DNA of 64,000 nt. It comes from Planctomycetales bacterium. Lineage in GTDB: Bacteria; Planctomycetota; JAKEIC01. A program made the translations under genes and the position numbers. This document shows positions 6,524-63,550 of this stretch, one piece after another; position 1 is the stretch's first letter; the number at the start of each line of letters is the position of its first letter. The notes under the pieces are model-generated. The model saw nothing but the letters and a program-made list of their open reading frames with translations, made no database searches and had not been told where the DNA came from. The stretch covers positions 4,012 through 68,011 of the forward strand of contig JAKEIC010000342.1 in NCBI GenBank assembly GCA_022614695.1, written 5' to 3'.

Positions 6524-6877
6524 TTGAGTACACTCCTGCCCGTGCCCCTCCCCCGGTCCGACATCGTGGTCCAGTTCCTCCGCGGCTCCGGCCCCGGGGG
6601 GTCGAACCGGAACAAGGTCGTGACCGGGGTCCGGGTCCGCCACGTCCCGACGGGGCTCGTCGCGATGGCGACCGAGCGGCGCTCACAGGCGCGGAACCTC
6701 GCGATCGCGCTCGACCGGCTCGAGGAGCGGGTGGGGGAGCACGCGCGGCCCAAGGTCCCCCGGGTCGCGACGGCCCCCACGGCCGGCGCGCGCCGGCGAC
6801 GGATCGAGGCGAAGCGTCGGCGGGGGGCCCGGAAGGCGGCCCGGAGGCCGGCGGGCCCCTTGGATGCCGGGGAGTAG
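6524..6877 (+). CDS. RF-1-domain / ArfB-like peptidyl-tRNA hydrolase homologue carrying GGS instead of GGQ
   Basis: The sequence SGPGGSNRNKV(V)TGVRVRH aligns by eye to the GGQ loop (GAGGQHVNK) of ArfB/RF-1 domains. It has a basic C-terminal tail. TTG at 6524 lies 8 nt after ggggga (alternative GTG at 6542). Confidence 0.65.
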   Translation: MSTLLPVPLPRSDIVVQFLRGSGPGGSNRNKVVTGVRVRHVPTGLVAMATERRSQARNLAIALDRLEERVGEHARPKVPRVATAPTAGARRRRIEAKRRRGARKAARRPAGPLDAGE

Positions 6878-6880
6878 AAT
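6875..6880 (+). promoter_or_regulatory. TAGAAT -10-like hexamer built on the upstream TAG stop, 15 nt before the GDPD ATG
   Basis: Read directly: gagTAGAATcctcccgggtccttcATG. Confidence 0.35.
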
Positions 6881-6895
6881 CCTCCCGGGTCCTTC

Positions 6896-7651
6896 ATGTC
6901 CCCTCCCCTCATCCTCGGCCATCGCGGCGCGAGCCGGGACGCTCCCGAGAACACCCTCTCGGCGTTCCGGCTGGCGCTTTCGCAGGGGGCCCACGGGGTC
7001 GAGCTGGACGTCCGGCGCTCGGGGGACGGGGAGCTCCTCTGCCTCCACGACGCCGACCTCGGACGGACGGTGCCGGGGGAAGGCGAGGTCGAGTACACCC
7101 CGGCCGCGACGATCCGGGCCGCCGACGCGGGCGGGTGGTTCTCGCCGACCTTCCGGGGCGAGAGGGTGCCGACCCTCGTGGAGGCGTGCGATGCGCTCCG
7201 GACCGCCCGCCTCGTCATGGTCGAGGTGAAGGCCCCGAAGGACGACCGGGACCTCCTCCTGCCCGGCATCTCCGAGGCGATGGCGGCGTTCCTCCGGGCG
7301 CCGCGCCCCGGGCCCGCGCTCCTCGTCGCGTCGTTCACGGTCCCCATCCTCCGCGAGATCCACGAGGCGGTGCCCGAGGCTCCCCTCGCGGCGATCGTGG
7401 GGCGCGCGATGGGCCCGTCCGAGTGGCGCTGGCTCCTCGGGCTCCCCCTGCGCGCCGTCTCCCTCGGCGACGAGTGGGCGACTCCTGACCGGATCCGGCA
7501 GATCCGGGAGACGGGCCGGGACGTCTACGTCTGGACCGTGGACGACGTCGGGAAGGCCGGGGACCTTCTGGAACTCGGCGTCTCCGGGATCGTCACGAAC
7601 ACGCCGACCCGACTCGTCCGGGGGCTCGCGGGGCGAGATGGGACCGACTAG
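6896..7651 (+). CDS. glycerophosphodiester phosphodiesterase
   Basis: GDPD signature: LILGHRGASRDAPENTLSAF...GVELDVRRSGDGELLCLHD. Confidence 0.9.
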   Translation: MSPPLILGHRGASRDAPENTLSAFRLALSQGAHGVELDVRRSGDGELLCLHDADLGRTVPGEGEVEYTPAATIRAADAGGWFSPTFRGERVPTLVEACDALRTARLVMVEVKAPKDDRDLLLPGISEAMAAFLRAPRPGPALLVASFTVPILREIHEAVPEAPLAAIVGRAMGPSEWRWLLGLPLRAVSLGDEWATPDRIRQIRETGRDVYVWTVDDVGKAGDLLELGVSGIVTNTPTRLVRGLAGRDGTD

Positions 7652-9260: not shown

Positions 9261-10112
9261 TCAGCGGCCGCCGGGAAGCGAGACTCGGTCCTTCATCCGG
9301 GCCCACCAATCCTGCCAGACCCGGCGATGAGGCGGGAGGTTCATGCGGCCCAGCGGAGTCTCCTGCAACCAGGCTTCGATCAGTCCGGTAATCGCTACGG
9401 ACAGGTAGTCGTCGTCGGCCTCCGGGGGGTCAAGGAGCATCTCGATCAACTCAGGGAGGGCAGCCTTGCGCGGATGCCCGCGCAGGCCTTGGCAGATCGC
9501 GTCGACGAGCCGAACCCGAGCTTCCGCGGAACGGCGGGATGCGCTATTCACACCGGCAAGGGGTCGTCGCCCTTCCTTCCGGAGGCGTTCGAGCAGGGCG
9601 GGATAGATCGTCTCTTCGTTCCACACGGGGGGGGCACAGAGGACCCTCACGATCGTCCACCTCTCGTCGAGACCCTCCTGAGCGAGCAGGACCAGGCACG
9701 CATCGAGGTACTTGAGGTCCACACGCTCGCGAGACGGCAAGGCCGCGTTGGCTGGCGGTGGGACCCCGAGCTCTCGGAGTTTCTCGACGATCTCGCTCGG
9801 AAGCGTCGGGGGCGGCGACGCGGTGAGCGGGGTGTCCGTCCCGGCGACGACCTCGGACGAGCTCGCTCGTTGCATCGACGGCGCGCGCTCGATCCTCTCG
9901 ATCCTCCGCTCCAGCTCCGTGAGCTTCTCGGAGATCGTCTGAAGCGCGAGGAGCGCGCCCGAGTCGCGCGGGACGGCGGCTTCGAGGGCGGAGGAGCGCC
10001 GCGCCGGCGCCCAGGGAGCGAAGGCGAGCATCGCCGCGAGGACAACGCCCGCGCCGAGGAAGGCCGCGAGGGCGGGGAGCCAGAGGCGCCACGCCGGTCC
10101 CGGGGAGTCCAT
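9261..10112 (-). CDS. hypothetical N-terminally membrane-anchored protein
   Basis: The ATG at 10112 overlaps the upstream stop (TGATG). It has a TM helix (WLPALAAFLGAGVVLAAMLAF), a coiled-coil-like segment and normal composition. I recognised no family. The 3' part looks less GC-rich by eye. Confidence 0.5.
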   Translation of the reverse strand: MDSPGPAWRLWLPALAAFLGAGVVLAAMLAFAPWAPARRSSALEAAVPRDSGALLALQTISEKLTELERRIERIERAPSMQRASSSEVVAGTDTPLTASPPPTLPSEIVEKLRELGVPPPANAALPSRERVDLKYLDACLVLLAQEGLDERWTIVRVLCAPPVWNEETIYPALLERLRKEGRRPLAGVNSASRRSAEARVRLVDAICQGLRGHPRKAALPELIEMLLDPPEADDDYLSVAITGLIEAWLQETPLGRMNLPPHRRVWQDWWARMKDRVSLPGGR

Positions 10113-10639
10113 CAGCCGGGGATCGTAGCAGACCTCGCGAGCAGGAGGTCCGAGTACGACACCGGCACCAGGTCCGCTTCGGCCACTCCGAGCAATCCCC
10201 GCCAGCGCTCGGCCTCGGCCGCGAGCGGGGCAAGGTCGGCGCCCTCCGGCCCCTCGACTTCCACCTCGACGAAGCTCCCGAGCCCTTCCACCTCGTCCAC
10301 GTGGACCTTCACCGCGCCCGCCCGGAAGAGCTCGCGCCGCTTCCCGACGACGACGCGCACCCCGCAGGCGGCCCCGAGGAGGGGTCCCAGCTCCGCCGGC
10401 GGGTCGTGGACGAGGAGCACCCGGCTCTCCCGGGTCCGCGCCCCGTCCGCGCGCTCGTAGAAGACGATCTCCCGGCCGAGGTCCCCCTCGCGGAGCTTGA
10501 GCCGCCCCCGCGGGACGTCGTAGTAGGTGTCCACCTGCCGGCCGGCGTTCGCGAGGCGGGCCCCGGCGGCGACTGCCGCCCGCCGCGCCGCCTCCGGGTG
10601 CCGGCAGCGCGCCTTCCACTCGGCGTTCACGAGGCGCAC
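10112..10639 (-). CDS. CYTH-domain protein (class IV adenylate cyclase / triphosphate tunnel enzyme-like)
   Basis: CyaB/CYTH-like pattern: EWKAR...QVDTYYDVPRGRLKLRE...FYER...KRRELF..GAVKVHVDEVEGLGSFVEVEV. GTG at 10639 (alternative 10630). Confidence 0.7.
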   Translation of the reverse strand: MRLVNAEWKARCRHPEAARRAAVAAGARLANAGRQVDTYYDVPRGRLKLREGDLGREIVFYERADGARTRESRVLLVHDPPAELGPLLGAACGVRVVVGKRRELFRAGAVKVHVDEVEGLGSFVEVEVEGPEGADLAPLAAEAERWRGLLGVAEADLVPVSYSDLLLARSATIPG

Positions 10640-10656
10640 GGAAGCTGCGATGGGTC

Positions 10657-10664
10657 CATAATAG
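10657..10664. promoter_or_regulatory. shared divergent AT-rich -10 region (CATAATAG; TATTAT on the other strand)
   Basis: On the plus strand, TAATAG lies 8 nt before the kinase GTG at 10673. On the minus strand, TATTAT lies 18 nt before the CYTH GTG at 10639. Confidence 0.3.
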
Positions 10665-10672
10665 CCGCCGCC

Positions 10673-13045
10673 GTGAACATCGGGCCCTACGAGGTGATCG
10701 GAGAGCTCGGCCGCGGCGGGATGGGCACCGTCTACCGCGCCCGGGACCCGGAGCTCCGGCGCGAGATCGCGCTCAAGGTGCTCGAGCGCGGCGCCGCCTC
10801 GGACGAGCGCGCCCGGTTCCTCCGCGAGGGACGGACCGGCGCGCGTCTGCGCCACCCGAACATCGTGACGGTCCACGCGGCGGGGGAGGCCGACGGCGCC
10901 GCCTTCATCGCGCAGGAGCTGATCGAGGGCGAGAGCCTCGCCCACGCCCTCGCCCGCGAGCCCTTCCCGCCGGAGCGGGCGGCGCGGCTCGTCGCGACGG
11001 TGGCGCGCGCCCTCGGCCACGCCCACCGCGAGGGCGTGGTCCACCGCGACGTGAAGCCGGGGAACATCCTCCTCGACCGGGCGGGCGAGCCCCACCTCGC
11101 CGACTTCGGTCTCGCGCGGACCGTCGAGGCCTCGGCCGCGCTCTCGCGCTCGGGCCAGGCGATCGGGACCCCGCACTACATGTCGCCCGAGCAGGCGAGC
11201 GGCCGGGTGGGCGTCGTGGACGCCCGCACGGACGTCTGGGGCTGCGGGATGGTCCTCTACGAGTGCCTCGCGGCCGCCCGGCCCTTCGAGGCCGAGGGGC
11301 CCATGGCCGTGATGACGGCGATCGTGCACGAGGAGCCCGTGCCGCTCCGGCGCCGGGTCCCCTCCGTGCCCGCAGCGCTCGACGTGGTCGTCGCACGCTG
11401 CCTCGAGAAGGAGCCGGACCGGCGCTACAGCTCGGCCGACGCCCTGGCCGAGGACCTGGAGAGGTACCTCGGGGGGCGTCCGGTCCTGGCTCGGGCCCCG
11501 GGGCTCGCGGAGAGGTGTCGCCGGCGCGTCCGCCGGAACCCGGCTGCCTACGGTGTCGGCGCGGCGCTCGGCGCCGTGGCGCTCCTCCTCGCCGGGGCGC
11601 TGGCCGTGCGCACGCTCCGCGAACGGGCCGGCCGCGCCGAGGAGGCGCGGCGCGCGGAGGAGCGCGTGCGGGCCCAGGCGGAGGGGTTCCTCGCCGAGGC
11701 GCGGGCGGCGCGGGAGGAGATCCGGCGCCTCGACGAGGCGCTCGCGAAGGTCCCCCGCGTGGAGGATCCCGCCGCCGAGGGGGGGGAGGGCGAGTCCGAA
11801 CGCGCCCGGCTCTGGCAGGAGCGCGAGGAGCAGACCGTGCTCGTCCGGAGCCACTACCTCGCCGTGCGTAGGATCCTCCGGGAGGAGCCCGGGCGGCCCG
11901 AGGCCCGGGAGGCGTCCGAGTCGCTCGGGGCCATCGCCTGGGCGCGACTCGTCGAGGCCGAGGCGGAAGGGAACCGCGAGGCGGCCGCGCGGTTCGAGGC
12001 GCTGCTGCGAGAGGCTGCCCCCGAGCGCTACGCGCAGGAGCTTCGCGGGGACGGCACGCTCACGCTCCGGACCGATCCTCCGGGGGCGGAGGTCGAGGCG
12101 CTCCAGTACGGGGAGGAGGACGGGAAGCTCGTCGCGAGGCCCTGGCGCCCCCTCGGGACGACTCCCATCGAGAAGGCGCCCTTGCCCATGGGCTCGTACC
12201 TCCTCGTCCTCCGGAAGGAGGGCTGCCGCGACGTCCGCTACCCGGTCCTCGTCGAGCGCGGGGAGGACGACGTCTCCCGCGACCCGGTCCCCCTCCTCAC
12301 GGACCGTCAGATCGGCAAGGGCTACGTCTGGGTCCCGCCGGGCGAGGCGATCCTCGGCGGCGACCCGAAGGCGCCCTACGCCTGGTCGCGGCGTAAGCGC
12401 TGGGTCGCGGGGTTCTGCCTCGCGGAGCGTGAGGTCACGTTCCGGGAGTACCGGGAGTTCCTCGGGGCGCTCCTCGCGAGGGGCGCCCCGGCGGCCGAGG
12501 TCGAGGCGCGCTGCCCGCGCCGGAGCGGGGTGGGTGGGGGCTACTGGGGCGTGCGCGATGGCCAGGTCGTCGAGCGCGGGCGCATCCCGGAGGAGTTCCC
12601 CGTCTTCGGCATCTCCTGGGGCGACGCCGACGCCTACGCCCGATGGCGGGGCGAGGTCGAGGGGCGCGGGGCGCGGCTCCCGACCGAGGAGGAGTGGGAG
12701 CGGGCCGCCCGCGGGGCCGACGGCCGGCTCTTCCCGTGGGGGAACGTCTTCCGCTGGGAGCGCGTCGTGGGCGGCCGGAGCCCGGTCCACGGCGAGCGGC
12801 CGCGCCCGAGACCCCCGGGGACCGCGGCCGACGACGTCTCGCCGTTCGGGGTGCGCGACCTCGCCGGGAGCGTCTACGAGTGGTGCGACGACCTGATCTC
12901 CGGCCGCAACCGCGCCGCGCGCGGCGGCGCCTGGGGCCACCTGAACACGAGCTACTTCCGCGCCGCATACCGGAACGGATACGACGAGACGCTCCTCGGG
13001 GACATGCACGGATTCCGGGTGCGGGCGGAGCCGAAGGCCCGATGA
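10673..13045 (+). CDS. full-length Ser/Thr protein kinase - TM - PEGA-like - FGE-sulfatase (SUMF1-like) domain protein (K1)
   Basis: All Hanks motifs are present: GRGGMGTVY, IALKVL, HRDVKPGNILL, DFGLAR, SPEQ. A TM helix follows (AAYGVGAALGAVALLLAGALAV). A PEGA-like segment is LTLRTDPPGAEVE. The FGE-sulfatase-like C-terminus contains GISWGDADAYARW, PTEEEWERAARG and RGGAWG. Confidence 0.9.
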   Translation: MNIGPYEVIGELGRGGMGTVYRARDPELRREIALKVLERGAASDERARFLREGRTGARLRHPNIVTVHAAGEADGAAFIAQELIEGESLAHALAREPFPPERAARLVATVARALGHAHREGVVHRDVKPGNILLDRAGEPHLADFGLARTVEASAALSRSGQAIGTPHYMSPEQASGRVGVVDARTDVWGCGMVLYECLAAARPFEAEGPMAVMTAIVHEEPVPLRRRVPSVPAALDVVVARCLEKEPDRRYSSADALAEDLERYLGGRPVLARAPGLAERCRRRVRRNPAAYGVGAALGAVALLLAGALAVRTLRERAGRAEEARRAEERVRAQAEGFLAEARAAREEIRRLDEALAKVPRVEDPAAEGGEGESERARLWQEREEQTVLVRSHYLAVRRILREEPGRPEAREASESLGAIAWARLVEAEAEGNREAAARFEALLREAAPERYAQELRGDGTLTLRTDPPGAEVEALQYGEEDGKLVARPWRPLGTTPIEKAPLPMGSYLLVLRKEGCRDVRYPVLVERGEDDVSRDPVPLLTDRQIGKGYVWVPPGEAILGGDPKAPYAWSRRKRWVAGFCLAEREVTFREYREFLGALLARGAPAAEVEARCPRRSGVGGGYWGVRDGQVVERGRIPEEFPVFGISWGDADAYARWRGEVEGRGARLPTEEEWERAARGADGRLFPWGNVFRWERVVGGRSPVHGERPRPRPPGTAADDVSPFGVRDLAGSVYEWCDDLISGRNRAARGGAWGHLNTSYFRAAYRNGYDETLLGDMHGFRVRAEPKAR

Positions 13046-15000
13046 ATTCCGCTCCCGCTCCCGGCCCCCCCCGCGCGTACCTCACCGACTTCGGCCTCGC
13101 GAAGTCCGTCGCGACCGGCTCGAAGCTCACGCGCACCGGCCAGGCGCTCGGGACGCCGGCCTACATGAGCCCGGAGCAGGCCCGGGGCGAGGTCTCCTCC
13201 CTCACGCCGGCGACGGACGTCTGGGGCCTGGGCTGCGTGCTCTACGAGATGCTGGCGGGAAGGCAGCCCTTCGAGGCCGAGACAAGCGAGGGGGTGGTGG
13301 TGGGGCGGATCCTCCTGACCGAGCCGCCGCGGCTCCGGACCCGGCGTGGGGACGTCCCGGCAGGGCTCGAACGAGTGGTCCGGGTGACCCTCGCGAAACG
13401 GGGTCAGGACCGCTACCGGGGCTCGGACGCCCTGAGAGACGACCTGGGCCGCGTGCTCGTCGGGAGCCGGCCGCGCGCGCGGCTGCCCGGGTGGCGGCTC
13501 CGCACCGGGGCCGGGCTTGCCGTGGCTGTCGCGGCGGGGCTCGGTATCGCGGCCGCGTGGCCTCGGGAGTTGCCGCCCGCTCCCGCAGTCCGCGCGGGCC
13601 CTGCCTCATCGGAGGCCGATCTCCTCGCGGCTCGGGCCCGAGGGCTCCGGCAGGCGGATCCCCGGGAGGCGGCCAGGCTCCTGGGGCAGGCGCTGTCTGC
13701 AGCGCCCGAGCGGCACGACTGGAGGCTCGAGAGAGGGCTCCTCCTCTGGGCCGTGGGCCAGTGGAAAGCCGCGCGCGAGGAGTGGGGCTCGATCCCCGAG
13801 AGCGCGACCGTCGGGAGCCGCGCGAGGCTCTATCGGGGGCTCGAGGCGCTCTTCCGGCTGGAGGGCGGCGTCTTCCACGCGGAAGAGGGGCGACCCGACC
13901 TCGAAGCGGCGGCGGCGGGGAGGGGTGAGGTGGCCCAGATCGCTAGGGGAGCGCTGGCAACCCTGTCGCACGACTGGTCCGAGGCCCGCAGGAGGCTCCG
14001 GGACGCTCCGGGCTGGGAGGCGGCGCTCCTTCGTGGATACGTGGAAGCGGGAGCCGAGAAGGGGGACGAGGCCGCCGCCGTCCGCGAGTACGGTCGCGCC
14101 CTCGAGGAGGGGATCCCGTTCGCGTGGGTCCTGGCCAGTCGTGGGGCCGTGCGTCACGGCCTCGGAGACCTCCGCGGCGCGCTGGAGGATTACGACGCGT
14201 CGCTCAGGCTCCAGCCCGGCACCCAGGCGGCGCTCTGCAATCGGGGGCTCGCGAAGCGAGACCTCCGAGACCCCCGCGGGGCGCTCGCCGACTACGACGC
14301 CGCGCTCCGGATCTGGCCGGACGACCCGGTCGCCCTCAACGGCCGGGGCGCCGCCCGGGCGCTCCTCGGAGACCTCGTCGGGGCGATCGAGGACCACGGC
14401 GCCGCACTGAGGCTCCGGCCGGACTTCCACGACGCCCGTTCCTACCGCGGCGCCGCGCGGCAGACCCTCGGGGACTACCGCGGGGCCATCGAGGACTACG
14501 ACGCCGCCCTCGCCCTGCTCCCGGACTTCCCCGAGGTGCACCTGAATCGGGGGGGCGTCCGGTGGGTCCTCGGGGACGTCCCTGGGGCGCTCGCTGACTA
14601 CGACGCCGCGCTCAGGCTCCGGCCCGGCTACGACCAGGCCCTCGTGGCTCGGGCGAACGCCCGCCTCGATCTCGGGGAGGATGGCCCGGCACTCGAGGAC
14701 TTCACGGCCGCCGTCGCCGCCGCCCCCACGCCGCGTCTCCACGGGTCGAGGGCCCTGGCGCTCGCGCGGCTCGGCCGGCTCGACGAGGCGCTCGCCGCCG
14801 CGGCGACGGCGCTCTCGATGGACCCGAAGGGACCCCACTACGCGTACGCGGCGCGAGGGCTCGTGAGGCTGCGGCAGGGCCGGCGAGCCGAGGCGCTCGC
14901 CGAGTTCGAGACATTCGACTCGCTCGCGCCTCGGACGGACCCGCTCCGGACGCAGGTCGCCGGTTGGAGGGCGGAGGCGGCAGGCGACGTCCCGAAGTAG
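13042..15000 (+). CDS. N-lobe-less kinase C-lobe - TM - TPR protein, array copy P1
   Basis: The ATG overlaps the K1 stop (ATGA, 13042-13045). The protein starts MNSAPAPGPPRAYLTDFGLAK, that is at kinase subdomain VII. It then has GTPAYMSPEQ, DVWGLGCVLYEML and DRY, followed by a TM helix and 34-aa TPR units (..GALEDYDAALRL.P). Confidence 0.8.
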   Translation: MNSAPAPGPPRAYLTDFGLAKSVATGSKLTRTGQALGTPAYMSPEQARGEVSSLTPATDVWGLGCVLYEMLAGRQPFEAETSEGVVVGRILLTEPPRLRTRRGDVPAGLERVVRVTLAKRGQDRYRGSDALRDDLGRVLVGSRPRARLPGWRLRTGAGLAVAVAAGLGIAAAWPRELPPAPAVRAGPASSEADLLAARARGLRQADPREAARLLGQALSAAPERHDWRLERGLLLWAVGQWKAAREEWGSIPESATVGSRARLYRGLEALFRLEGGVFHAEEGRPDLEAAAAGRGEVAQIARGALATLSHDWSEARRRLRDAPGWEAALLRGYVEAGAEKGDEAAAVREYGRALEEGIPFAWVLASRGAVRHGLGDLRGALEDYDASLRLQPGTQAALCNRGLAKRDLRDPRGALADYDAALRIWPDDPVALNGRGAARALLGDLVGAIEDHGAALRLRPDFHDARSYRGAARQTLGDYRGAIEDYDAALALLPDFPEVHLNRGGVRWVLGDVPGALADYDAALRLRPGYDQALVARANARLDLGEDGPALEDFTAAVAAAPTPRLHGSRALALARLGRLDEALAAAATALSMDPKGPHYAYAARGLVRLRQGRRAEALAEFETFDSLAPRTDPLRTQVAGWRAEAAGDVPK

Positions 15001-15003
15001 GAT
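14998..15003 (+). promoter_or_regulatory. TAGGAT junction hexamer (P1 stop embedded)
   Basis: TAGGATCGCGCC is conserved with the four other junctions. Here it is followed by a copy-specific insert containing a cccgggag direct repeat, TTGACG and GAGAAT. Confidence 0.3.
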
Positions 15004-15016
15004 CGCGCCCCGGGAG

Positions 15017-17215: not shown

Positions 17216-17218
17216 GAT
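17213..17218 (+). promoter_or_regulatory. TAGGAT -10-like hexamer on the P2 stop, 6 nt before GTG 17225 (leaderless geometry)
   Basis: Read directly: aagTAGGATcgcgccGTGcgg. Confidence 0.4.
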
Positions 17219-17224
17219 CGCGCC

Positions 17225-44329: not shown

Positions 44330-44339
44330 CGCGCCGTCC

Positions 44340-49152: not shown

Positions 49153-49157
49153 TTTCC

Positions 49158-55085: not shown

Positions 55086-55095
55086 GCGGAGATTC

Positions 55096-55101
55096 TAGGA
55101 T
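55096..55101 (+). promoter_or_regulatory. TAGGAT -10-like hexamer, 6 nt before GTG 55108 (14-codon mini-ORF preceding NUDIX)
   Basis: Read directly: ttcTAGGATcgtccgGTGttg. Confidence 0.35.
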
Positions 55102-57471: not shown

Positions 57472-57477
57472 TATCAT
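57472..57477 (+). promoter_or_regulatory. TATCAT -10-like hexamer, 7 nt before GTG 57485
   Basis: Read directly: ggcTATCATcgagcccGTG. Confidence 0.3.
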
Positions 57478-57484
57478 CGAGCCC

Positions 57485-58084
57485 GTGAGAGTCCTTGCGG
57501 CCGCGCTCGCAACGATCGTCTCCTCCCCCGGCTGCATCGCGTGGCGGTCGCACGTGGACCCTGGGGTCGCCGAGTGGCCCGAGTCGGCGCGGGCGGCCGG
57601 GAGGTCCCCCGCCCGGGCGCGGGTCTCGCTCGTGCTCCGGCGCCAGGCCCGCGGCGAGGAGGTCCCCGCGCTCGACCCCGAGCGCACGACGGCCGCAACG
57701 GAGACTCTCTCGCGGCTCCTCCTCGAGGCGAACCTCGTCTCCGAGGCGGGTCCAGGGGTCGGGTTCGCTGACCTGGTGCTGCGCGTGGTCGTGACGGAGC
57801 GCGAGAAGGGGTCCCGGACGATGGCCACCATCACCTTCGCGAGCCTCGGGCTCGTGCCCTTCTTCGGCGGCGTCGAGGTCGAGGCGGAGTGCGAGGCGAT
57901 CGGCCCGGACGGGAAGACGCTCGCCACCTACCAGGGCCGGGCCGAGGTGACGCAGGTCGCTCACCTCCTCCTGCTCGCGGCCTGGAACGCGGGCGCGCTC
58001 GCCTCCTGCTCGACGGACGCTCTCAAGAGCGTCGTCGTGCAGGTCTCCCGGGACCGGGAGAGGCTCCTCGGTCCCCCCCGCTAG
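57485..58084 (+). CDS. putative lipoprotein, hypothetical
   Basis: The N-terminus MRVLAAALATIVSSPGC is a signal peptide with a Cys. I recognised no family. Confidence 0.5.
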   Translation: MRVLAAALATIVSSPGCIAWRSHVDPGVAEWPESARAAGRSPARARVSLVLRRQARGEEVPALDPERTTAATETLSRLLLEANLVSEAGPGVGFADLVLRVVVTEREKGSRTMATITFASLGLVPFFGGVEVEAECEAIGPDGKTLATYQGRAEVTQVAHLLLLAAWNAGALASCSTDALKSVVVQVSRDRERLLGPPR

Positions 58085-61041
58085 TTCCCGCCCGCCGCCG
58101 GCTCCTCGACGAGCTTCCGGAACTTCTCCTCGCCCCGCAGCGCTTGGAGGTCTTCGTCATTCCGCATGTGGTCGCGGTCCTTGTAGCCGAGCCCCACCGC
58201 CTTCTCGAGGTTCTCCAGAGCCTCGGATCGCAGCGCCGCCGCCCGGTCGGCCGCGCAGTCCTTCTCGCAGCACTGCTTCGAGAGCGCGCAGGCGAGGTTG
58301 TAGCGCGCCCTCTGGAGCGCCTCGGTGCGGAACTCCTTCGCCCAGGGGGCGGAGGCCTTCTTCAGGTTGTCGAGGAGCCGGCCCTTTTCCCCCAGCTTGC
58401 GGAGGACTTCGCGGGCCTGGGCGGGGCCCTTCCCGCGGTCCGGCGCGGCGGCTCCCGGCTCCGCCACGACCTGCTCGATCACGATCCCGCCAGCCGGCTC
58501 GCCGGACTCGAGGTCCGCGAGGGCCTGCCGGTAGAGGGCCTCGCAATGGCCCAGGTCCCCGTCCTGGTCCAGCATCCGGTCGGCTTCTGTCAGTTGGCTC
58601 CACCCGCGCCAGAAGCGCAGCGTCCCCGGGGCCAGCGCCTCGGCCTTCGCGGCCGCGGCGCCGACCTCCATCCCCGAGAGCCACGCCTGCGCCTTCCGGC
58701 GGAAGCCCGAGTCCTCGGGGATCTCCTTCAGGAACGCGCGCAGGTCGTCGGCCACCCCCGTGAAGTTCGCCTCGTGCTGGTTCACGAGGGCCCGGTAGAA
58801 GTGCGCGACCGGCTGGTCCTTGGCGTTCTGCACCAGCCAGTCGAGCTGCTCGCGCGCGGCGGCGAGGTCCTCCGGCGTCGGCGCGCTCGGTCCCCGCGCG
58901 CCCGGGATCACGTCCGTCATGTGGACCGCGGCCGCGCCGAGCCGGATCTCGGGGGAGTCGCCCCCGAGCCGGCGCGCCTCCTCGAGGTCGCGGCGGGCCG
59001 ACTCGCGGTTCCCCCGGGCCTGGTGGACCCGCGCGCGGTGCAGAAGCCGCGCCGGGTCGCCCGGATCGAGCGCGACGAGCCGCTCCGCGTCCGCGAGCGC
59101 CTCGCGGCCGTGCCCGAGCAGCAGGTTCGCCTCGGACCGCCCCGCGAGGATCGAGTCGGGATCGGCGCCGTACTCCACCGCCCGGCCGTAGTCGGCGAGC
59201 GCCTCTTTGAAGCGCGAGCGTCCTCCGCGGACGTTCCCCTCGCCGGACTCCATGTGCCCGCGGCCGATGCGCGCGGCGGCGCGGAGCGCGTAGGCGTCGG
59301 CGAAGTAGCGGTCGGCGGCGAGGGCGCGGTCCAGCGCCTCGAGCGCGCCGTCGAAGTCCCACGCGAGGAGGAGCAGCATCGCCCGCGCGGCGAGCGCGCG
59401 CTCCTCGCGGGTGCCGAGCGCGGAGAGCCGCTCGAGGTCGGCGTGGATCGCGGCGACCTCCGGCCCCCCCTGGATCCCGCTCCCGGTCTGGCGCGTGAAC
59501 GCCCGGTCGAACCGGAGCCGCGCCCGCTCGTAGTAGGCGTCGGCGAGGTCCCGATCCTCGCGGACCGCCGCGTCGTAGTCCGAGAGCGCCCCGGTCGGGT
59601 CCCCTACCAGCGCGCGGGCCCGGGCGCGCGTCAGGAGGCACTCCGGGTACCCCGGGGCCTTCCCGAGAGCCTCGTCGGCGGCGGCGATCGCCTCGGCGAG
59701 CGCCGCGCGGGCCGCGGCGGCGTCCCCCGAGCGGCGCGCCTTCTCGGCGAAGGAGAGCCGGGCGCAGGCCCGCTCGTAGGCCGGTCGCGCCTCGCGGCGC
59801 GCTTCGGCCGAGCGCCCGGCCGCCGCGGCGTGCGCGACCTCCTCGGCGCTGGCGCTCCGGACGCGCGCCATCTCCTTCTTCGCCTTCCCCGCGGTCGTGA
59901 GCCCGGCGGCGAGCGCCAGGGAGCCGAGGAGGAGCGCGACGCCTCCTGCCACGGCGACCGGGTGACGGCGCGCGCCGCGCCACGCCCGGCCGAGGGTCCC
60001 GAGGGGCCGCGCCGAGATCGGGGCTCCCTCCAGGACCCGGTCGAGGTCGCCCGCGAGATCCTCGGCCGAGGGGTAGCGCTCGCGGAAGTCCTTCCGGAGC
60101 GCCTTCTCCACCACGGTCCCGAGGTCCGCCGGCACGTCGTTCCGGTAGTGGCGGACGGACGGCGGCTCGTCCACCTGCACCGACTTGAGGATCTCGAGCA
60201 CGGTCTCCCCCACGGCGGGGGGGCGCCCCGTGAGGCACTCGTAGAGCACGGCGCCGAGCGCGTAGACGTCGGTTGCCGGGCCGACCGCGCGGTGGTCCCC
60301 GGCCGCCTGCTCGGGGGCCATGTACTGGGGCGTCCCGATCGCGGTCCCCTCGCGGGTGAGCCCGGAGGCGCCCTCGAGGCGCGCGAGCCCGAAGTCCGTG
60401 ACCCGCGGCCGGAGCCCGGCCCCCTCGGGCTGCAGCAGGATGTTCGCCGGCTTCAGGTCCCGGTGGATGATCCCCTGGCCGTGCGCGTAGTGGATCGCCC
60501 GCGCGACGTCGCGGACGATCGCCGTCGCCCGGCGCCAGTCGAGAGTCTCCTCCCGGATCGCCTGGTCGAGCCCCCGTCCGGGGACGAACTCCATGGCGAA
60601 GTACCTGAGCCCCCCCGACTCGCCCACCTCGTGCACGGGCACGATGTTCGGGTGCGAGAGCTTCGCAGCCGCCCGCGCCTCGCGGAGGAACCTCTCCACC
60701 CGGTCGCGCGCCGGCGCGCCCCCCTCGGGTCCCTCGTGGAGCACCTTGAGCGCCACGTCGCGTTCCAGCCCGGCCTGGCGGGCCCGGTAGACGACCGCCA
60801 TCCCGCCCCGGCCGATCTCCCCCACGACCGTGTAGGCGCCTACGCGGGTCCCCACGATCAGCCCGCCGCGCGCGTGGGTCGGCCGCGGCTCGGCGGCGGC
60901 GGGGACGGGCGTCGCGGGCGTCTCCACCGTCGGCGCCTCGGCGAACGAGCAGCGGGGGCAGAGGCCCGTCCCGGAGGCGGGCGCCCCGGCTCCCCCGTCG
61001 GGGAGCGCGGCTCCGCACCGGCTGCACGTGGACGCGGCCAC
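58081..61041 (-). CDS. Ser/Thr protein kinase with N-terminal Zn-ribbon, TM and long TPR ectodomain (K3)
   Basis: GGAGGAG lies 6 nt before the GTG at 61041. Zn-ribbon CSRCG..CPRC. The kinase motifs are complete: GRGGMAVVY, VALKVL, HRDLKPANILL, DFGLAR, APEQ. A TM helix and TPRs follow. TAGACT lies at 61071-61076 on the minus strand. Confidence 0.9.
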   Translation of the reverse strand: MAASTCSRCGAALPDGGAGAPASGTGLCPRCSFAEAPTVETPATPVPAAAEPRPTHARGGLIVGTRVGAYTVVGEIGRGGMAVVYRARQAGLERDVALKVLHEGPEGGAPARDRVERFLREARAAAKLSHPNIVPVHEVGESGGLRYFAMEFVPGRGLDQAIREETLDWRRATAIVRDVARAIHYAHGQGIIHRDLKPANILLQPEGAGLRPRVTDFGLARLEGASGLTREGTAIGTPQYMAPEQAAGDHRAVGPATDVYALGAVLYECLTGRPPAVGETVLEILKSVQVDEPPSVRHYRNDVPADLGTVVEKALRKDFRERYPSAEDLAGDLDRVLEGAPISARPLGTLGRAWRGARRHPVAVAGGVALLLGSLALAAGLTTAGKAKKEMARVRSASAEEVAHAAAAGRSAEARREARPAYERACARLSFAEKARRSGDAAAARAALAEAIAAADEALGKAPGYPECLLTRARARALVGDPTGALSDYDAAVREDRDLADAYYERARLRFDRAFTRQTGSGIQGGPEVAAIHADLERLSALGTREERALAARAMLLLLAWDFDGALEALDRALAADRYFADAYALRAAARIGRGHMESGEGNVRGGRSRFKEALADYGRAVEYGADPDSILAGRSEANLLLGHGREALADAERLVALDPGDPARLLHRARVHQARGNRESARRDLEEARRLGGDSPEIRLGAAAVHMTDVIPGARGPSAPTPEDLAAAREQLDWLVQNAKDQPVAHFYRALVNQHEANFTGVADDLRAFLKEIPEDSGFRRKAQAWLSGMEVGAAAAKAEALAPGTLRFWRGWSQLTEADRMLDQDGDLGHCEALYRQALADLESGEPAGGIVIEQVVAEPGAAAPDRGKGPAQAREVLRKLGEKGRLLDNLKKASAPWAKEFRTEALQRARYNLACALSKQCCEKDCAADRAAALRSEALENLEKAVGLGYKDRDHMRNDEDLQALRGEEKFRKLVEEPAAGGN

Positions 61042-61201
61042 CCCTCACTCCTCCTCTGAATTCGCGGGGAAGTCTACCCGGGCCCAGGGTTACTGACGAC
61101 CGGACCGGGCCCTCACTCCCTGGGACGGGGCTCCTTCCGCTCCGGTTCCCCTGCCTCTTCTCGTTCCGCGGGAATGGTTTGCGTGGGGATCCGGGATTCG
61201 G

Positions 61202-61207
61202 TAGCGT
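61202..61207 (+). promoter_or_regulatory. TAGCGT -10-like hexamer, 7 nt before GTG 61215
   Basis: Read directly: cggTAGCGTccggcccGTGgcc. Confidence 0.3.
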
Positions 61208-61214
61208 CCGGCCC

Positions 61215-62240
61215 GTGGCCCGACTCCTTCGCGTCGCCGCGATCCAGGCCGAGCCGGAGGTCCTCCGCCTTGCGGCCTCGGTCGAGAAGGCCGTGGGCCT
61301 CCTCGACGAGGCGGCGGCCCGCGGGGCGCGACTCGCGGTCTTCCCGGAGACGTTCCTCTGCGCCTATCCGGCGTGGGCCCACGCGAGCCCCTTCGACGAC
61401 CCGGCCGCGAAGCGGGCGCATCGGAGGCTCCTCGAGGAGTCGCCCCGCGTCCCGGGACCCGAGACGGAGCGGCTCGGCGCGGCCGCGCGGGAGCGGGGTC
61501 TGGCGGTCGCGATCGGCGTGAACGAGCGGGCGGGTCACGGGACGGTCCTCTACAACAGCCTCGTCTACATCGGGAACGACGGGAGACTCGCCGGGTTGCA
61601 CCGGAAGCTTGTCCCGACCCACCACGAGAGGACCGTCTGGAGCCCCGGCGACGGGAGCACTCTCGCGCCGGTGACGCTCGCGGGCGCCCGCGTCGGCGGG
61701 CTTCTCTGCTTCGAGAACTACATGCCTCTCGCCCGGTTCTCCCTCTACGCCCAGGGAGTGGAGGTCTACCTCGCCCCGACCGCCGACGACCGCGAGGCGT
61801 GGCAGCACTCCCTCAGCCACCTCGCGCAGGAGGCGCGGGCCTACGTGATCTCGCCCTGCATCCTGCAAAGGAAGTCCTCGTTCCCCGCGGACTTCCCCCT
61901 CCGGAACGACCCCGCCTGGGCGCGCGAGCCCGAGGCGCAGGTGCGCGGCGGGACCGCGATCGTGGCGCCGGACGGGACGGTCCTGGCAGGTCCGGTCTAC
62001 GACCGGGAGGAGGTCCTCGTCGCGGACCTGGACCTCGACCGGATCCCCGAGGAGCGCCAGATCCTCGACGTGGCCGGCCACTACGCGCGCCCGGACGTCT
62101 TCTCGCTCCGAGTGGACCGGACGGCCCGCGACGCCGTCCGCTTCGTCGGCGGCGACGGCCGCGAGCCGGGCCCGCGAGCGCGGAGGCGCGCCGGGAGCCC
62201 CGAGCGCCGGACGCCTCGGCGCCGGCGGGGCGAGTCCTAG
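61215..62240 (+). CDS. nitrilase / carbon-nitrogen hydrolase family protein
   Basis: The Glu-Lys-Cys triad contexts are present: VFPETF, HRKLVPT, LLCFENYMP. Starting at 61215 gives the family-typical M..LRVAAIQ N-terminus. The ORF-track start at 61179 is also possible. Confidence 0.8.
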   Translation: MARLLRVAAIQAEPEVLRLAASVEKAVGLLDEAAARGARLAVFPETFLCAYPAWAHASPFDDPAAKRAHRRLLEESPRVPGPETERLGAAARERGLAVAIGVNERAGHGTVLYNSLVYIGNDGRLAGLHRKLVPTHHERTVWSPGDGSTLAPVTLAGARVGGLLCFENYMPLARFSLYAQGVEVYLAPTADDREAWQHSLSHLAQEARAYVISPCILQRKSSFPADFPLRNDPAWAREPEAQVRGGTAIVAPDGTVLAGPVYDREEVLVADLDLDRIPEERQILDVAGHYARPDVFSLRVDRTARDAVRFVGGDGREPGPRARRRAGSPERRTPRRRRGES

Positions 62241-62247
62241 GACCCGA

Positions 62248-63528
62248 TCACTCCACCACCGGCAGCCGGATCTTCTCCCTCTTCCCGCCGCGCAGCACCT
62301 CGATCTCGCAGGTCTTGCCCGCCTGCTGCGTCAGCCGGAACCAGGCCTGGAAATGCAGTTCGCTCTCGAAGTCGGCCTTCGCGGCGGCCGAGAGGACCAG
62401 GTCGCCCTTCTTGATGCCGGCTTTCGCGGCGTTCCGGCCCGTGTGGGCCTCGTCCCCCCAGTCCACGATGTACTGGACCCGGAACGCGAACGCGCCGGCG
62501 GGGAGGCCGGCCTTGGCGACGTCCTCGGGGGAGAGTCTCGGTCCCCCGAACCCGGGCTTCGGGGAGAGCCCCCACATCGAGGCCCGCCAGGAGAGGTCGA
62601 GGGGGGACCCGACTCGCCAGCCGGGGCGCAGCGCGACCTTCCCCTCCTTCGCCTCGCCGCCGCGCTCCCAGGCGAGGGGGAGCGTCCCCCCCGCGAACGG
62701 GGTCTCCTCCAGGACCCACTGCACGTCGGCGATCGTCCGCACGCGTCGCCCCCCAACGCGCGCGAGACGGTCCCCGGCGCGGAGCCCGGCGGCCGCAGCC
62801 GGCGACCGGGCGGCAATCTCCTTCACGAGAGTCTGGTCGGCGGGGTCCAGCGCGAGCCCCACGCGGGCGGGATCGGGCCAGAGCCAGATCGAGTCGCGGG
62901 ACCAGCGCTTCGCGTCCTGCGCCGTCCGCCGCTCCGACTCGTTCACCATGTGGCAGTGGAAGCACTTGGGAGCCTTCCCGGCCTTGATCTGCCTCGCCAT
63001 CGCGGGGATCTGTTCGATGGCGCGGACGGGGGCGGGCTTCGGAGGCCGCGGGCTCTTCCCGTACTCCTCGTGGTCGGCGAGCGTCTCCTTCATCGCGCGC
63101 ACGAGCGACGCGATCGAGAGCCGCGCCTCGGCGGGACCCCCGTCGCGGCCGCCGTACTGGCGGTAGATGGTCCCGTCGCCGTTCATGAGGAGCGCGGCGA
63201 ACGTGAGGTCGTAGTCGAAGCGGAAGACGCCGAGGTCCACCCCGGCCATGTCGAGGACGCGGACGCAGACGTAGTCCTTTGCCGCCTCGACGAACTCCGC
63301 GGGGGGACGGACCAACCGCCCGTCCCAGGACTGGCAGTCCTTTCAGGGCTCTCAGCGGAAGACGGCAAGGAGAGGCTTCCCGGACTGGGCGGCCTCGGCG
63401 CGCGCGAGAGTCAGGTCGGCGCGCCAGGAGAATGCCCCTGGCGCGCCCCCGTCCTGGGCGAGGGCTGGGAGAAGAGCCCCGGCCGCGAGGGCGGCGGGGA
63501 GGAACGCGAGGCGAGAGACGAGCGACAT
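62248..63528 (-). CDS. exported thioredoxin-like / CxxCH / double-PDZ protein with two in-frame TGA codons forming a U-E-P-U-K-D-C motif (predicted double-selenocysteine protein)
   Basis: GGAGGAGG lies 5 nt before the ATG at 63528. The signal peptide is MSLVSRLAFLPAALAAGALLPALA-QD. The protein then reads ..SGKPLLAVFR-TGA-GAG-CCC-TGA-AAG-GAC-TGC.. I checked codon by codon that this is contiguous in frame with ORF 62248..63315. PDZ-like segments include AAGLRAGDRLARVGG and AAKAGIKKGDLVL. Confidence 0.7.
63304..63326 (-). promoter_or_regulatory. SECIS-like hairpin 2 (GGGACGG gcgguuggu CCGUCCC)
   Basis: A 7-bp perfect stem. Its GU-rich 9-nt loop lies 25-33 nt after the second UGA (63343-63345). 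Confidence 0.4.
63327..63341 (-). promoter_or_regulatory. SECIS-like hairpin 1 (AGGACU gcc AGUCCU)
   Basis: A 6-bp perfect stem. Its apical loop lies 17-19 nt after the first UGA (63352-63354). Confidence 0.35.
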
Positions 63529-63544
63529 GGAGACCTCCTCCAGG

Positions 63545-63550
63545 ATCCTA
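63545..63550 (-). promoter_or_regulatory. TAGGAT -10-like hexamer built on the LpxL-like gene's TAG stop, 16 nt before ATG 63528
   Basis: Minus strand reads gtTAGGATcctggaggaggtctccATG. Confidence 0.35.

What the first reader, a model, noticed from the sequence alone, without database searches (positions are those of the whole stretch)
6875..63550. Recurrent TAGRAT-type -10 hexamers, often built on the upstream TAG stop, 6-10 nt before start codons (leaderless design)
Seen in sequence, geometry -10, then N6-10, then start codon. TAGGAT-N6-GTG occurs at 17213, 19202, 21410 and 23894 (P3, P4, P5, ggt) and at 55096 (a mini-ORF). TAGCGT-N7-GTG is at 61202 (nitrilase). TATCAT-N7-GTG is at 57472. 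TAATAG-N8-GTG is at 10659 (K1). TACCCT-N8-GTG is at 33902 (K2, with TTGTCG 17 nt upstream). TAGAAT-N10-ATG is at 44324. TATAGT-N12-ATG is at 49140 and on the minus strand upstream of 5499. In seven cases the TAG of the hexamer is the stop codon of the preceding gene: 6875, 14998, 17213, 19202, 21410, 23894 and 63548-63550 (minus strand). The same hexamer class also appears in classical promoters with leaders: TTGGCA-N17-TAGAAT at 29822, TAGGAT at 29118, TAGACT at 42748 and at 61071-61076 (minus strand), and TAGTGT at 31980. Established knowledge: transcription starts about 6-8 nt after the -10, and a start codon at that position is the hallmark of leaderless mRNAs. Inference: a large share of genes here are transcribed as leaderless or very short-leader mRNAs from stop-codon-embedded promoters inside apparent operons.
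Basis: partly seen in the sequence, partly recalled or inferred. Interest (0 to 1): 0.5.

Follow-up and report, generated by a model that had tools for sequence, protein, structure and literature searches.

The report
Start-adjacent -10 boxes: leaderless genes
About a quarter of the genes in this very GC-rich planctomycete DNA have a promoter -10 box (TANNNT) only 6-12 bases before the start codon. This is the known signature of leaderless mRNAs, seen here in a phylum where the papers I could search do not report it, so it is real but ordinary in kind.

Summary
With the paralogous copies counted once, 11 of 42 genes have TANNNT 6-12 nt before the start codon. Dinucleotide shuffles give 0.9 (maximum 5 in 2000). 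Composition-matched control patterns give 0-2. None of these genes has a GGAGG Shine-Dalgarno site, whereas nine other genes do, and those carry the same hexamer type 21-47 nt upstream. In a related MAG whose upstream regions are only about 50% identical, the hexamer and its spacing are kept at 8 of 10 testable sites. This fits the known start-adjacent -10 design of leaderless genes described in Actinobacteria, Deinococcus-Thermus and some Deltaproteobacteria. Here the organism is labelled Planctomycetales, and four more distant relatives lack the pattern.

The stop-codon part is weaker. Five of the seven cases are one junction copied in a tandem paralogue array, and that junction is ancestral to ggt. 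Only the P/ggt junction has leaderless spacing; the GDPD junction sits at 15 nt. TAG is the majority stop codon here, and TAGNNT after TAG stops occurs at the base rate. TAGGAT-N6-GTG could equally be a weak stop-overlapping SD (AGGA). The "mini-ORF" at 55096 is not a gene. No transcription start site data exist.

The parts
17213..17227 (+). TAGGAT-N6-GTG junction between P2 and P3. TAG is the stop of P2. Copies of the same junction lie at 19202-19216, 21410-21424 and 23894-23908 (the last before ggt).
   Evidence: The block GAAGTAGGATCGCG(C/T)C is invariant in five copies while the flanking coding sequence varies. AGTAGGATC is also present at the K1/ggt junction of the relative L096.
14998..15040 (+). 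P1/P2 junction: TAGGAT (TAG is the stop of P1), then a 34-nt spacer containing GGGAG 7 nt before GTG 15038.
   Evidence: The external gene call of 725 aa agrees. This gene has a leader, not a leaderless start.
6875..6898 (+). TAGAAT (TAG is the stop of the RF-1 domain gene), N15, ATG of the GDPD gene.
   Evidence: Hexamer and spacing are identical in the relative L096. The spacer of 15 implies a leader of about 8 nt.
6529..6544 (+). TACACT-N7-GTG, RF-1 domain (ArfB-like) gene.
   Evidence: The relative has TAGACT-N6-GTG in an otherwise 29% identical upstream region.
5497..5540 (-). TTGACG (5535-5540), N17, TATAGT (5512-5517), N12, ATG 5499 of a 116-aa gene.
   Evidence: The relative has TTGTCC-N17-TAGAGT-N12-ATG. 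The deeper relative L104 has TATAGT 45 nt upstream plus an SD.
5080..5098 (-). TAGACT-N10-GTG, aminotransferase. This is a weak case.
   Evidence: Homologues of 392-394 aa with full coverage support this start. In the relative the hexamer is TAGGCC, so it is not conserved.
10110..10127 (-). TACGAT-N9-ATG of a 283-aa gene. In the window the hexamer lies inside the 3' end of the CYTH gene, whose TGA overlaps the ATG.
   Evidence: It is conserved as TACGAT-N9-ATG in the relative, where the CYTH gene is deleted.
10637..10675 (.). 33-nt divergent region between CYTH (GTG 10639, minus) and kinase K1 (GTG 10673, plus). It holds one AT-rich block, CCATAATAGCC, read as CATAAT-N10-GTG on the plus strand and TATTAT-N18-GTG on the minus strand.
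   Evidence: The relative keeps CATAAT-N8-GTG. The K1 start is supported by the Pfam kinase domain beginning 5 aa later and by the relative's 798-aa call.
33879..33918 (+). TTGTCG-N17-TACCCT-N8-GTG, kinase K2.
   Evidence: The external call of 898 aa agrees. Not testable in the relative.
44324..44342 (+). TAGAAT-N10-ATG, DUF1570 / peptidase MA-like gene.
   Evidence: TAGAAT-N10-ATG is kept in the relative L103 within diverged flanks.
49140..49160 (+). TATAGT-N12-ATG, M16 peptidase.
   Evidence: It is identical in the relative. NCBI's 897-aa protein agrees with this start.
55083..55101 (.). Palindromic ATTCTAGGAT. On the minus strand it reads TAGAAT (55092-55097), N6, GTG 55085 (methyltransferase). 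On the plus strand it reads TAGGAT (55096-55101), 47 nt before the NUDIX GTG at 55149.
   Evidence: The relative has TCTAAT-N9-GTG on the minus strand and TAGAAC on the plus strand, so it is only partly conserved.
57472..57487 (+). TATCAT-N7-GTG, 199-aa gene.
   Evidence: The external call of 199 aa agrees. The relative has TATGAT-N8-TTG with diverged flanks.
61202..61217 (+). TAGCGT-N7-GTG, nitrilase (CN_hydrolase).
   Evidence: TAGCGT-N7-GTG is exactly conserved in the relative while the 25 nt upstream diverge.
61039..61076 (-). Promoter with a leader: TAGACT (61071-61076), N29 containing GAGGAGGAG, GTG 61041 of kinase K3.
   Evidence: The relative has TAGACT-N27 with the same SD.
63526..63550 (-). 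TAGGAT (TAG is the stop of the lipid A acyltransferase gene), N16 containing GGAGGAGG, ATG 63528 of the Trx7/PDZ selenoprotein gene.
   Evidence: It is conserved in the relative, but a strong SD (-13.2 kcal/mol) makes an ordinary operon junction the simpler reading.
29822..29894 (+). TTGGCA-N17-TAGAAT (29845-29850), a 41-nt leader with AGGAGG, then ATG 29892.
29118..29169 (+). TAGGAT, 43 nt with GGAGGAGG, then ATG 29167 (rhodanese).
31980..32017 (+). TAGTGT, 29 nt with GGGAGG, then GTG 32015.
   Evidence: The external 383-aa call places the start at 32015.
42745..42793 (+). TGG-TAGACT (an extended -10 form), then a leader with GGGGAGGTGA and a probable ATC start at 42791 of the SpoIIE-type phosphatase.
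   Evidence: TGGTAGACT and the SD are conserved in the relative. The changes downstream of the ATC are synonymous.
38160..38216 (+). TTGACC-N16-GATAAT, with TAGCCT overlapping just downstream, then a leader with GGGAGG and ATG 38214 (DUF4388 protein).
   Evidence: The relative keeps TTGACC-N16-GACAAT and the SD.

Best explanation
These are sigma-70-type -10 elements with a loose TANNNT consensus: G is preferred at position 3, and a -35 box is usually absent. They sit so close to the start codon that transcription should begin at the start codon or a few bases before it. For spacers of 6-8 nt, all with GTG starts, the first base of the start codon falls where +1 is expected. For spacers of 9-12 nt, mostly with ATG starts, the leader would be about 2-6 nt. 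The resulting mRNAs have no room for a Shine-Dalgarno site, so they would be translated by the leaderless route, in which the ribosome binds a 5'-terminal AUG or GUG. About a quarter of the genes in this window use this design. Another fifth use the same -10 type 21-47 nt upstream together with a strong GGAGG site.

Shown here: the positions, the enrichment, the absence of strong SD sites in this class, and the conservation.
Inferred: that the hexamers bind RNA polymerase, where transcription starts, and how the mRNAs are translated.

Where the upstream gene ends 9-18 nt before such a start, the -10 must overlap the stop codon, and only TAG or TAA fit the TA of the hexamer. The four TAGGAT-N6-GTG sites are one such junction. 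It is ancestral to ggt and was copied each time a 5'-truncated kinase-TPR gene was duplicated in tandem.
For: Enrichment: 11 of 42 genes against 0.88 expected from shuffles. Fisher p = 2e-5 with gene calls made without looking upstream and paralogues counted once; control patterns give 0-2. Thirty-three of 69 TANNNT lie in the 4% non-coding DNA, and 24 of those point at a gene start within 47 nt.

No overlap with strong SD sites: 0 of 14 leaderless-type genes have GGAGG, against 9 of 30 others.

Conservation in MAG GCA_040961615.1, where upstream regions average 50% ungapped identity: 8 of 10 hexamers are kept at the same spacer within 1 nt. The changes fall in the NNN positions (TACACT to TAGACT, TATAGT to TAGAGT, TATCAT to TATGAT). 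The background rate for three positions being kept is 34%, which gives a binomial p of about 0.004 (my arithmetic).

Tight divergent gene pairs leave no room for leaders: K1/CYTH 33 nt, methyltransferase/NUDIX 63 nt, and LpxL/AP endonuclease 18 nt in L098.

Start codons are supported by external gene calls, by NCBI protein lengths, by homologue lengths and by N-termini that stay conserved next to diverged upstream DNA.

Precedent: a TANNNT signal about 12 nt before start codons (counted from its first T) marks leaderless genes (PMC3160421). This is backed by TSS mapping in Deinococcus deserti (PMC4007540) and M. tuberculosis (PMC3898074), and by mutagenesis in D. radiodurans (PMC12340547).
Against: There are no transcription start site or expression data for this organism. 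The sample is one 64-kb window plus about 45 kb from one close relative. Spacers of 10-15 nt (the aminotransferase, DUF1570, M16, the 116-aa gene and GDPD) imply leaders of 3-8 nt rather than strictly leaderless mRNAs. Two hexamers are not strictly conserved (the aminotransferase is lost; the methyltransferase is shifted to TCTAAT). The TAGGAT junctions contain AGGA at SD-like spacing and have no -35 box. Their invariance among copies could reflect recent duplication or gene conversion rather than promoter function.
Confidence: 0.72

Rival explanations
1. For the TAGGAT-N6-GTG junctions (P2-P5, ggt): the genes are co-transcribed as one operon. TAGGAT would then be the stop codon plus a weak Shine-Dalgarno site (AGGA) that overlaps it. 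The downstream gene would be translated by SD-assisted coupling or by re-initiation after termination, not from its own promoter.
For: AGGA lies where GGAGG would leave a 5-nt aligned spacing to GTG, within the 5-8 nt seen for true SD sites in the window. The duplex energy is -5.6 kcal/mol. Stop codons that overlap the next gene's SD, for example TAGGAGG at 10-nt spacers in B. subtilis, are documented (PMC2784483). No -35 box is present at any junction. The 9-nt in-frame spacers and the same orientation are typical of operons. Six other gene pairs in the window use 4-nt stop/start overlaps.
Against: True SD sites in this window are much stronger (-10 to -14 kcal/mol, GGAGG). The other start-adjacent hexamers (TAGAAT, TACACT, TATAGT, TAGCGT, TATCAT, TACCCT) have no SD-like core, so this reading cannot explain the class. 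TAGGAT also occurs as a likely -10 at 43 nt (29118), upstream of a strong SD. The two functions are not mutually exclusive.
Confidence: 0.3
2. The hexamers are not promoters. They would reflect a general need for A/T-rich, unstructured sequence just upstream of start codons in a 74% GC genome, for example for ribosomal protein S1 binding or to avoid secondary structure.
For: AT-rich bias upstream of non-SD genes has been given this interpretation (PMC5397173). The pattern lies in the most AT-tolerant part of a very GC-rich genome.
Against: Patterns of the same composition (AT...T, TT...A, AA...T, TA...A, T.A..T) are not enriched: 0-2 against 13-14. Conservation is specific to positions 1, 2 and 6. 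The same hexamers occur 21-47 nt upstream of SD-led genes, sometimes with a TTGACx box 16-17 nt further up.
Confidence: 0.05
3. The pattern is an artefact of start-codon choice. The true starts would lie elsewhere, and the apparent 6-12 nt spacing would come from picking the ATG or GTG nearest to a hexamer.
For: In 74% GC DNA many in-frame GTG codons exist. My caller and the external callers disagreed on a few starts: K1 (10301 or 10673), the 199-aa gene (57485 or 57554), and 32015 or 32063.
Against: My caller ignored upstream sequence and still gave 13 of 43. External calls and NCBI proteins agree for P3-P5, ggt, K2, the nitrilase, M16 and the 199-aa gene. Between the window and the relative, conservation starts at the proposed start codon and stops immediately upstream of it.
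Confidence: 0.05

Closest known systems
Leaderless genes of Actinobacteria (Mycobacterium, Streptomyces, Corynebacterium) with a TANNNT -10 immediately upstream of ATG/GTG
   Same: High GC content. A loose TANNNT -10 with little or no -35. A start codon placed where +1 is expected. Both ATG and GTG used. About 20-30% of genes affected, alongside SD-led genes (PMC3898074, PMC4895711, PMC3160421). A preference for G at position 3 (TAGRRT) is the classical Streptomyces consensus; this last point is from my own knowledge.
   Different: The organism is labelled Planctomycetales, not an actinobacterium. There is no TSS evidence here. The trait appears limited to a narrow lineage: 0 of about 34 genes in four more distant relatives.
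The '-10-motif adjacent to ORFs' of Deinococcus-Thermus
   Same: A TANNNT motif a few bp upstream of ORFs alongside a separate GGAG ribosome-binding-site class. It was shown by mutagenesis to be a true -10 that needs no -35, and it has a spacing requirement (PMC12340547, PMC4007540).
   Different: The reported share is higher there: about 30% of ORFs carry the -10-motif on average across the phylum (PMC12340547), and 47-60% of mRNAs are leaderless in D. deserti (PMC4007540). It is phylum-wide there and lineage-restricted here.
Predicted leaderless genes in Deltaproteobacteria and other phyla (TA-like signal surveys)
   Same: The same in-silico signature. Eight of 33 deltaproteobacterial genomes carry it, at 5.7-20.6% of genes (PMC3160421).
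   Different: The passages of that survey that I read (Table 2 and the Results text) name no Planctomycetes genome among those with the signal. A later study only hints at 'leaderless and/or RPS1' signals in one planctomycete genome (PMC5397173).
Stop codon overlapping the Shine-Dalgarno site in short co-directional spacers (for example TAGGAGG)
   Same: The TAG stop of the upstream gene forms part of the initiation signal of the next gene at a 9-10 nt spacer (PMC2784483).
   Different: Here only AGGA is available, and the hexamer fits a -10 (T-A-N3-T) at least as well. The same geometry with TAGAAT (6875) has no SD core.

Membership tests
Leaderless genes with a start-adjacent -10 (TANNNT) promoter | The TANNNT motif peaks a few nt upstream of start codons, above background. 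| tested here: met
   11 of 42 genes against 0.88 from shuffles. Fisher p = 2e-5 with paralogues counted once; control patterns give 0-2.
Leaderless genes with a start-adjacent -10 (TANNNT) promoter | These genes have no Shine-Dalgarno site. | tested here: met
   0 of 14 have GGAGG, against 9 of 30 others. Mean duplex energy is -3.9 against -6.3 kcal/mol. The TAGGAT subset has only AGGA.
Leaderless genes with a start-adjacent -10 (TANNNT) promoter | The transcription start site lies at the start codon or within about 5 nt of it. | not testable with these tools
   There are no RNA data. The geometry fits for spacers 6-8. Spacers 10-15 predict leaders of 3-8 nt.
Leaderless genes with a start-adjacent -10 (TANNNT) promoter | The start codon is ATG or GTG, suitable for 5'-terminal initiation. 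| tested here: met
   10 GTG and 4 ATG, no TTG in the window class. One TTG occurs in the relative.
Leaderless genes with a start-adjacent -10 (TANNNT) promoter | The motif and its spacing are under selection, that is, conserved in relatives. | tested here: met
   8 of 10 are kept in GCA_040961615.1, against a 34% background. Only one close relative was available.
Canonical sigma-70 promoter (-35 TTGACA, 17 +/- 1 nt, -10) | A -35 hexamer lies 16-19 nt upstream of the -10. | tested here: not met
   Only 2 of 16 start-adjacent hexamers have at least 4 of 6 matches (TTGACG at 5535-5540, TTGTCG at 33879), against 4.5% at random positions. Some promoters with leaders do have one (29822 TTGGCA; 38160 TTGACC).
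Stop/SD overlap or translational coupling at the P and ggt junctions | A sequence complementary to the anti-SD overlaps the stop codon at 5-10 nt from the next start. | tested here: inconclusive
   AGGA at -5.6 kcal/mol with an aligned spacing of 5 nt. This is much weaker than the window's true SD sites at -10 to -14.
Termination-reinitiation coupling (ATGA / TGATG overlaps) | The stop and start codons overlap. | tested here: not met
   The P and ggt junctions have a 9-nt gap. Overlaps do exist at six other gene pairs and at CYTH/283-aa.

The most novel reading that the evidence does not exclude
A narrow, very GC-rich planctomycete lineage may have recently moved about a quarter of its genes to leaderless expression. 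One ortholog still has the -10 45 nt upstream plus an SD in a deeper relative, but 12 nt upstream with no SD here. In such a genome a module of about 15 nt, TAGGAT-N6-GTG, would be a complete promoter plus start signal. It would have been co-opted from ggt and copied to express five tandem, 5'-truncated genes that encode a kinase C-lobe plus TPR repeats. A portable leaderless start cassette would then let gene fragments become expressed genes.
Probability: 0.3. Interest if true: 0.55.

Novelty: new member of a known kind. Interest (0 to 1): 0.3.

Why it matters
The practical value is for annotation. In this lineage start codons can be placed using the TANNNT box, and gene finders need a leaderless model. 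My own calls, and some external calls in the relative, missed several starts for lack of one.

Biologically, it extends the start-adjacent -10 design to a Planctomycetota lineage. The trait looks recent and restricted to that lineage, which would help in studying how leaders are lost. It adds no new mechanism. The stop-codon overlap follows from the geometry once TAG stops are common.

Tried and rejected
1. A genome-contig scan with ggt found only relatives at 55% identity or less.
2. A metagenome scan with the M16 peptidase found nothing closer than 37% over short stretches.
3. I first guessed Myxococcota from the domain content (DUF4388, many Ser/Thr kinases with TPR repeats). I dropped this when identical proteins turned out to be named Planctomycetales bacterium.
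4. I considered TAG read-through of the in-frame P2-P5-ggt series. I rejected it because TAG is the main stop codon here and ggt carries its own N-terminal signal-like sequence.
5. The DNA of the contig of aminotransferase homologue P0002 (66% identity) was not available.
6. Literature searches for leaderless transcription or TSS maps in Planctomycetes or Myxococcus found nothing relevant.
7. The -35 search was largely negative.
8. My first gene calls missed the CYTH gene and the NUDIX gene, and misplaced the starts of K1, 32015 and 31448. I corrected these from external calls and Pfam.


Full report
WHAT THE WINDOW IS

The window is 74% GC and about 96% coding. The same DNA occurs in MAG GCA_973348535.1. 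Proteins identical to those of the window are named 'MAG... [Planctomycetales bacterium]' by NCBI. Because ORF lists are uninformative at this GC content, I called genes with a codon log-odds model that ignores upstream sequence. I then corrected a few starts using external gene calls, Pfam and a close relative. The final list has 47 genes plus one tRNA-Ser.

CHECKING THE OBSERVATION

Every hexamer is at the stated coordinate with the stated spacer. With the gene calls made without looking upstream, TANNNT lies 6-12 nt before the start codon in 13 of 43 genes. Only 7 hexamers fall in the remaining 42 upstream positions (Fisher p = 2e-7; p = 2e-5 when the paralogous junctions count once). Patterns of the same base composition give 0-2 hits in the same positions. 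With the curated list and paralogues counted once, 11 of 42 genes carry the hexamer. Dinucleotide-preserving shuffles of the same upstream regions give 0.88, with a maximum of 5 in 2000 trials. For TAGNNT the figures are 5 against 0.30.

TANNNT is rare in the window overall: 69 copies on both strands, against about 270 expected from base composition. Thirty-three of the 69 lie in the 4% of non-coding DNA. Twenty-four of those point at a gene start within 47 nt.

TWO CLASSES OF GENES

Nine genes have a strong GGAGG site (-10 to -14 kcal/mol against the anti-SD). None of them has a start-adjacent hexamer. Several carry TAGGAT, TAGAAT, TAGACT or TAGTGT 21-47 nt upstream. The 14 genes with a start-adjacent hexamer have no GGAGG. 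Six further gene pairs use 4-nt stop/start overlaps. A -35 box is mostly absent from the start-adjacent class: 2 of 16 have at least 4 of 6 matches. This is also the case for actinobacterial and Deinococcus leaderless promoters.

Spacers of 6-8 nt all go with GTG starts. Spacers of 9-12 nt mostly go with ATG. The sample is small and I did not follow this up.

COMPARISON WITH RELATIVES

A related MAG, GCA_040961615.1, has 75-93% protein identity and is syntenic over about 45 kb (L096, L097, L103). Its upstream regions average only 50% ungapped identity to the window. The hexamers compare as follows.

Kept at the same spacer (within 1 nt):
- ggt: TAGGAT-N6.
- The 283/245-aa gene: TACGAT-N9.
- The RF-1 domain gene: TACACT-N7 in the window, TAGACT-N6 in the relative.
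- The 116/118-aa gene: TATAGT-N12 in the window, TAGAGT-N12 in the relative, with a -35 box 17 nt upstream in both.
- The nitrilase: TAGCGT-N7.
- The 199-aa gene: TATCAT-N7-GTG in the window, TATGAT-N8-TTG in the relative.
- DUF1570: TAGAAT-N10.
- M16: TATAGT-N12.

Not strictly kept:
- The aminotransferase: lost (TAGGCC in the relative).
- The methyltransferase: altered to TCTAAT-N9.

That is 8 of 10 sites, against a 34% background for the same three positions being kept. My binomial arithmetic gives p of about 0.004. The promoters with leaders at K3 and the DUF4388 gene are also conserved.

Four more distant relatives (55-62% identity in the query proteins, 67-74% GC) show no TANNNT at spacer 6-12 in about 34 genes. 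In one of them the ortholog of the 116-aa gene has TATAGT 45 nt upstream plus an SD. The design therefore seems restricted to a narrow lineage.

THE STOP-CODON CLAIM

P1-P5 (13042-23896) are tandem paralogues. Each starts about 15 residues before the kinase DFG motif, so each has only the kinase C-lobe, followed by TPR repeats. Their junctions share an invariant GAAGTAGGATCGCG(C/T)C block.

In the relative there is no array. K1 is followed directly by ggt through ...AGTAGGATccgcccGTG. P3-P5 and ggt share the first codons GTG CGC/CGG GGC. The simplest history is that ggt's start module was copied with each duplication.

This leaves few independent stop-embedded hexamers:
- the P/ggt junction (spacer 6);
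- GDPD (spacer 15, conserved);
- the selenoprotein junction (spacer 16, with a strong SD in between);
- P1/P2 (spacer 34, with an SD).

TAG is the majority stop codon (25 of 45). Among 21 independent TAG stops, 4 are followed by NNT, which is about the base rate. One of those four has no downstream gene at all (26880, minus). So the overlap of -10 and stop codon is a geometric consequence of short spacers plus frequent TAG, not a separate design.

For TAGGAT-N6-GTG a weak SD (AGGA, -5.6 kcal/mol, correct spacing) remains a live alternative. Stop/SD overlaps of the TAGGAGG kind are documented (PMC2784483).

OTHER CORRECTIONS

The 'mini-ORF' at 55108 is not a gene. ATTCTAGGAT is a two-faced element. 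It serves TAGAAT-N6-GTG of the minus-strand methyltransferase and lies 47 nt before the NUDIX gene.

K1 starts at 10673, only 33 nt from the divergent CYTH gene that I had first missed.

COMPARISON WITH WHAT IS KNOWN

A TANNNT signal about 12 nt upstream of start codons (counted from its first T) was described as the mark of bacterial leaderless genes. It was surveyed across 953 bacterial genomes, with these shares of genes: Actinobacteria 19%, Deinococcus-Thermus 39%, and 8 of 33 Deltaproteobacteria at 6-21% (PMC3160421; see also PMC2238952). TSS mapping confirmed it in M. tuberculosis (PMC3898074) and D. deserti (PMC4007540). Mutagenesis showed that the motif is a true -10 in D. radiodurans (PMC12340547).

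The held literature contains no report of this for Planctomycetes. One study hints at it for a single planctomycete genome (PMC5397173).

VERDICT

The pattern is real and very probably functional. It is a new taxonomic instance of a well-known design. The stop-codon emphasis is largely an effect of paralogy and stop-codon usage.

Confidence that these are start-adjacent -10 elements giving leaderless or near-leaderless mRNAs: about 0.7 for the class as a whole, and about 0.5 for the P-array junctions specifically.

Noticed in passing
window 62248-63528 (-); TGA codons at 63352-63354 and 63343-63345: This gene has two in-frame TGA codons spaced U-E-P-U where thioredoxin folds have CxxC. A small hairpin (GGACUgccAGUCC) follows the second TGA. 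With the two TGA codons read as Cys, the protein matches NCBIfam NF041199, 'Trx7/PDZ domain-containing (seleno)protein', at 410 bits against a cutoff of 300. Gene callers split it into a 58-aa piece and a 355-aa piece, here and in all relatives examined.
   Followed up: partly
window 13042-23896 (+) and 46177-47916 (-): Five tandem, in-frame paralogues encode only the C-lobe of a Ser/Thr kinase (from about 15 aa before DFG; no HRD or VAIK motif) fused to TPR repeats. A sixth copy has DFG in frame but no canonical start before an internal ATG. The related MAG has neither the array (there K1 is followed directly by ggt) nor the sixth copy. Whether these are functional scaffolds or decaying gene fragments is open.
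   Followed up: partly
whole window; L096, L097, L103: TAG is the most frequent stop codon: 25 TAG, 18 TGA and 2 TAA in the window, and 19 of 34 in the close relative. By my recollection this is unusual for a genome above 70% GC, where TGA normally dominates. More distant relatives show 1 of 11 and 5 of 14.
   Followed up: partly
window 42785-42916 (+): The SpoIIE-type phosphatase ORF seems to begin at a non-canonical ATC (42791), 6 nt after GGGGAGGTGA. The 120 nt before the annotated ATG (42914) have no canonical start. They are conserved in the relative with only synonymous changes.
   Followed up: partly
window 10115-10639 (-): A CYTH-domain gene (175 aa, Pfam E = 9e-14) was missed by my first gene calls. 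Its TGA overlaps the ATG of the next gene (TGATG). In the relative a deletion of about 480 nt removes it, leaving an 80-nt intergenic region.
   Followed up: yes
window 10656-10666 and 55092-55101; L098 6127-6144: Divergent gene pairs lie very close together (33, 63 and 18 nt between start codons). Each pair shares one AT-rich block that reads as a -10-like hexamer on both strands: CCATAATAGCC, ATTCTAGGAT, and TACGATTCTC (the last reads GAGAAT on the other strand, which does not fit TANNNT).
   Followed up: partly
whole window: TANNNT is about four times rarer than base composition predicts (69 against about 270 on both strands). Only 36 copies lie fully inside coding sequence. This could be selection against spurious -10 boxes or simply codon and dinucleotide bias; I did not separate the two.
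   Followed up: no
window start codons listed: Among genes with a start-adjacent hexamer, spacers of 6-8 nt always go with GTG (9 of 9; 6 of 6 with paralogues counted once). Spacers of 9-12 nt mostly go with ATG (4 of 5).
   Followed up: no
window 1842-2933 (+): A Rieske ring-hydroxylating oxygenase alpha-subunit gene lies between the M28 peptidase and the 2-hydroxyacid dehydrogenase genes. It is absent at that position in the related MAG, where those two genes are directly convergent.
   Followed up: no
window 48409-48501 (-): The only RNA gene found is tRNA-Ser(GCT), directly upstream of the TrkA_C gene.
   Followed up: yes
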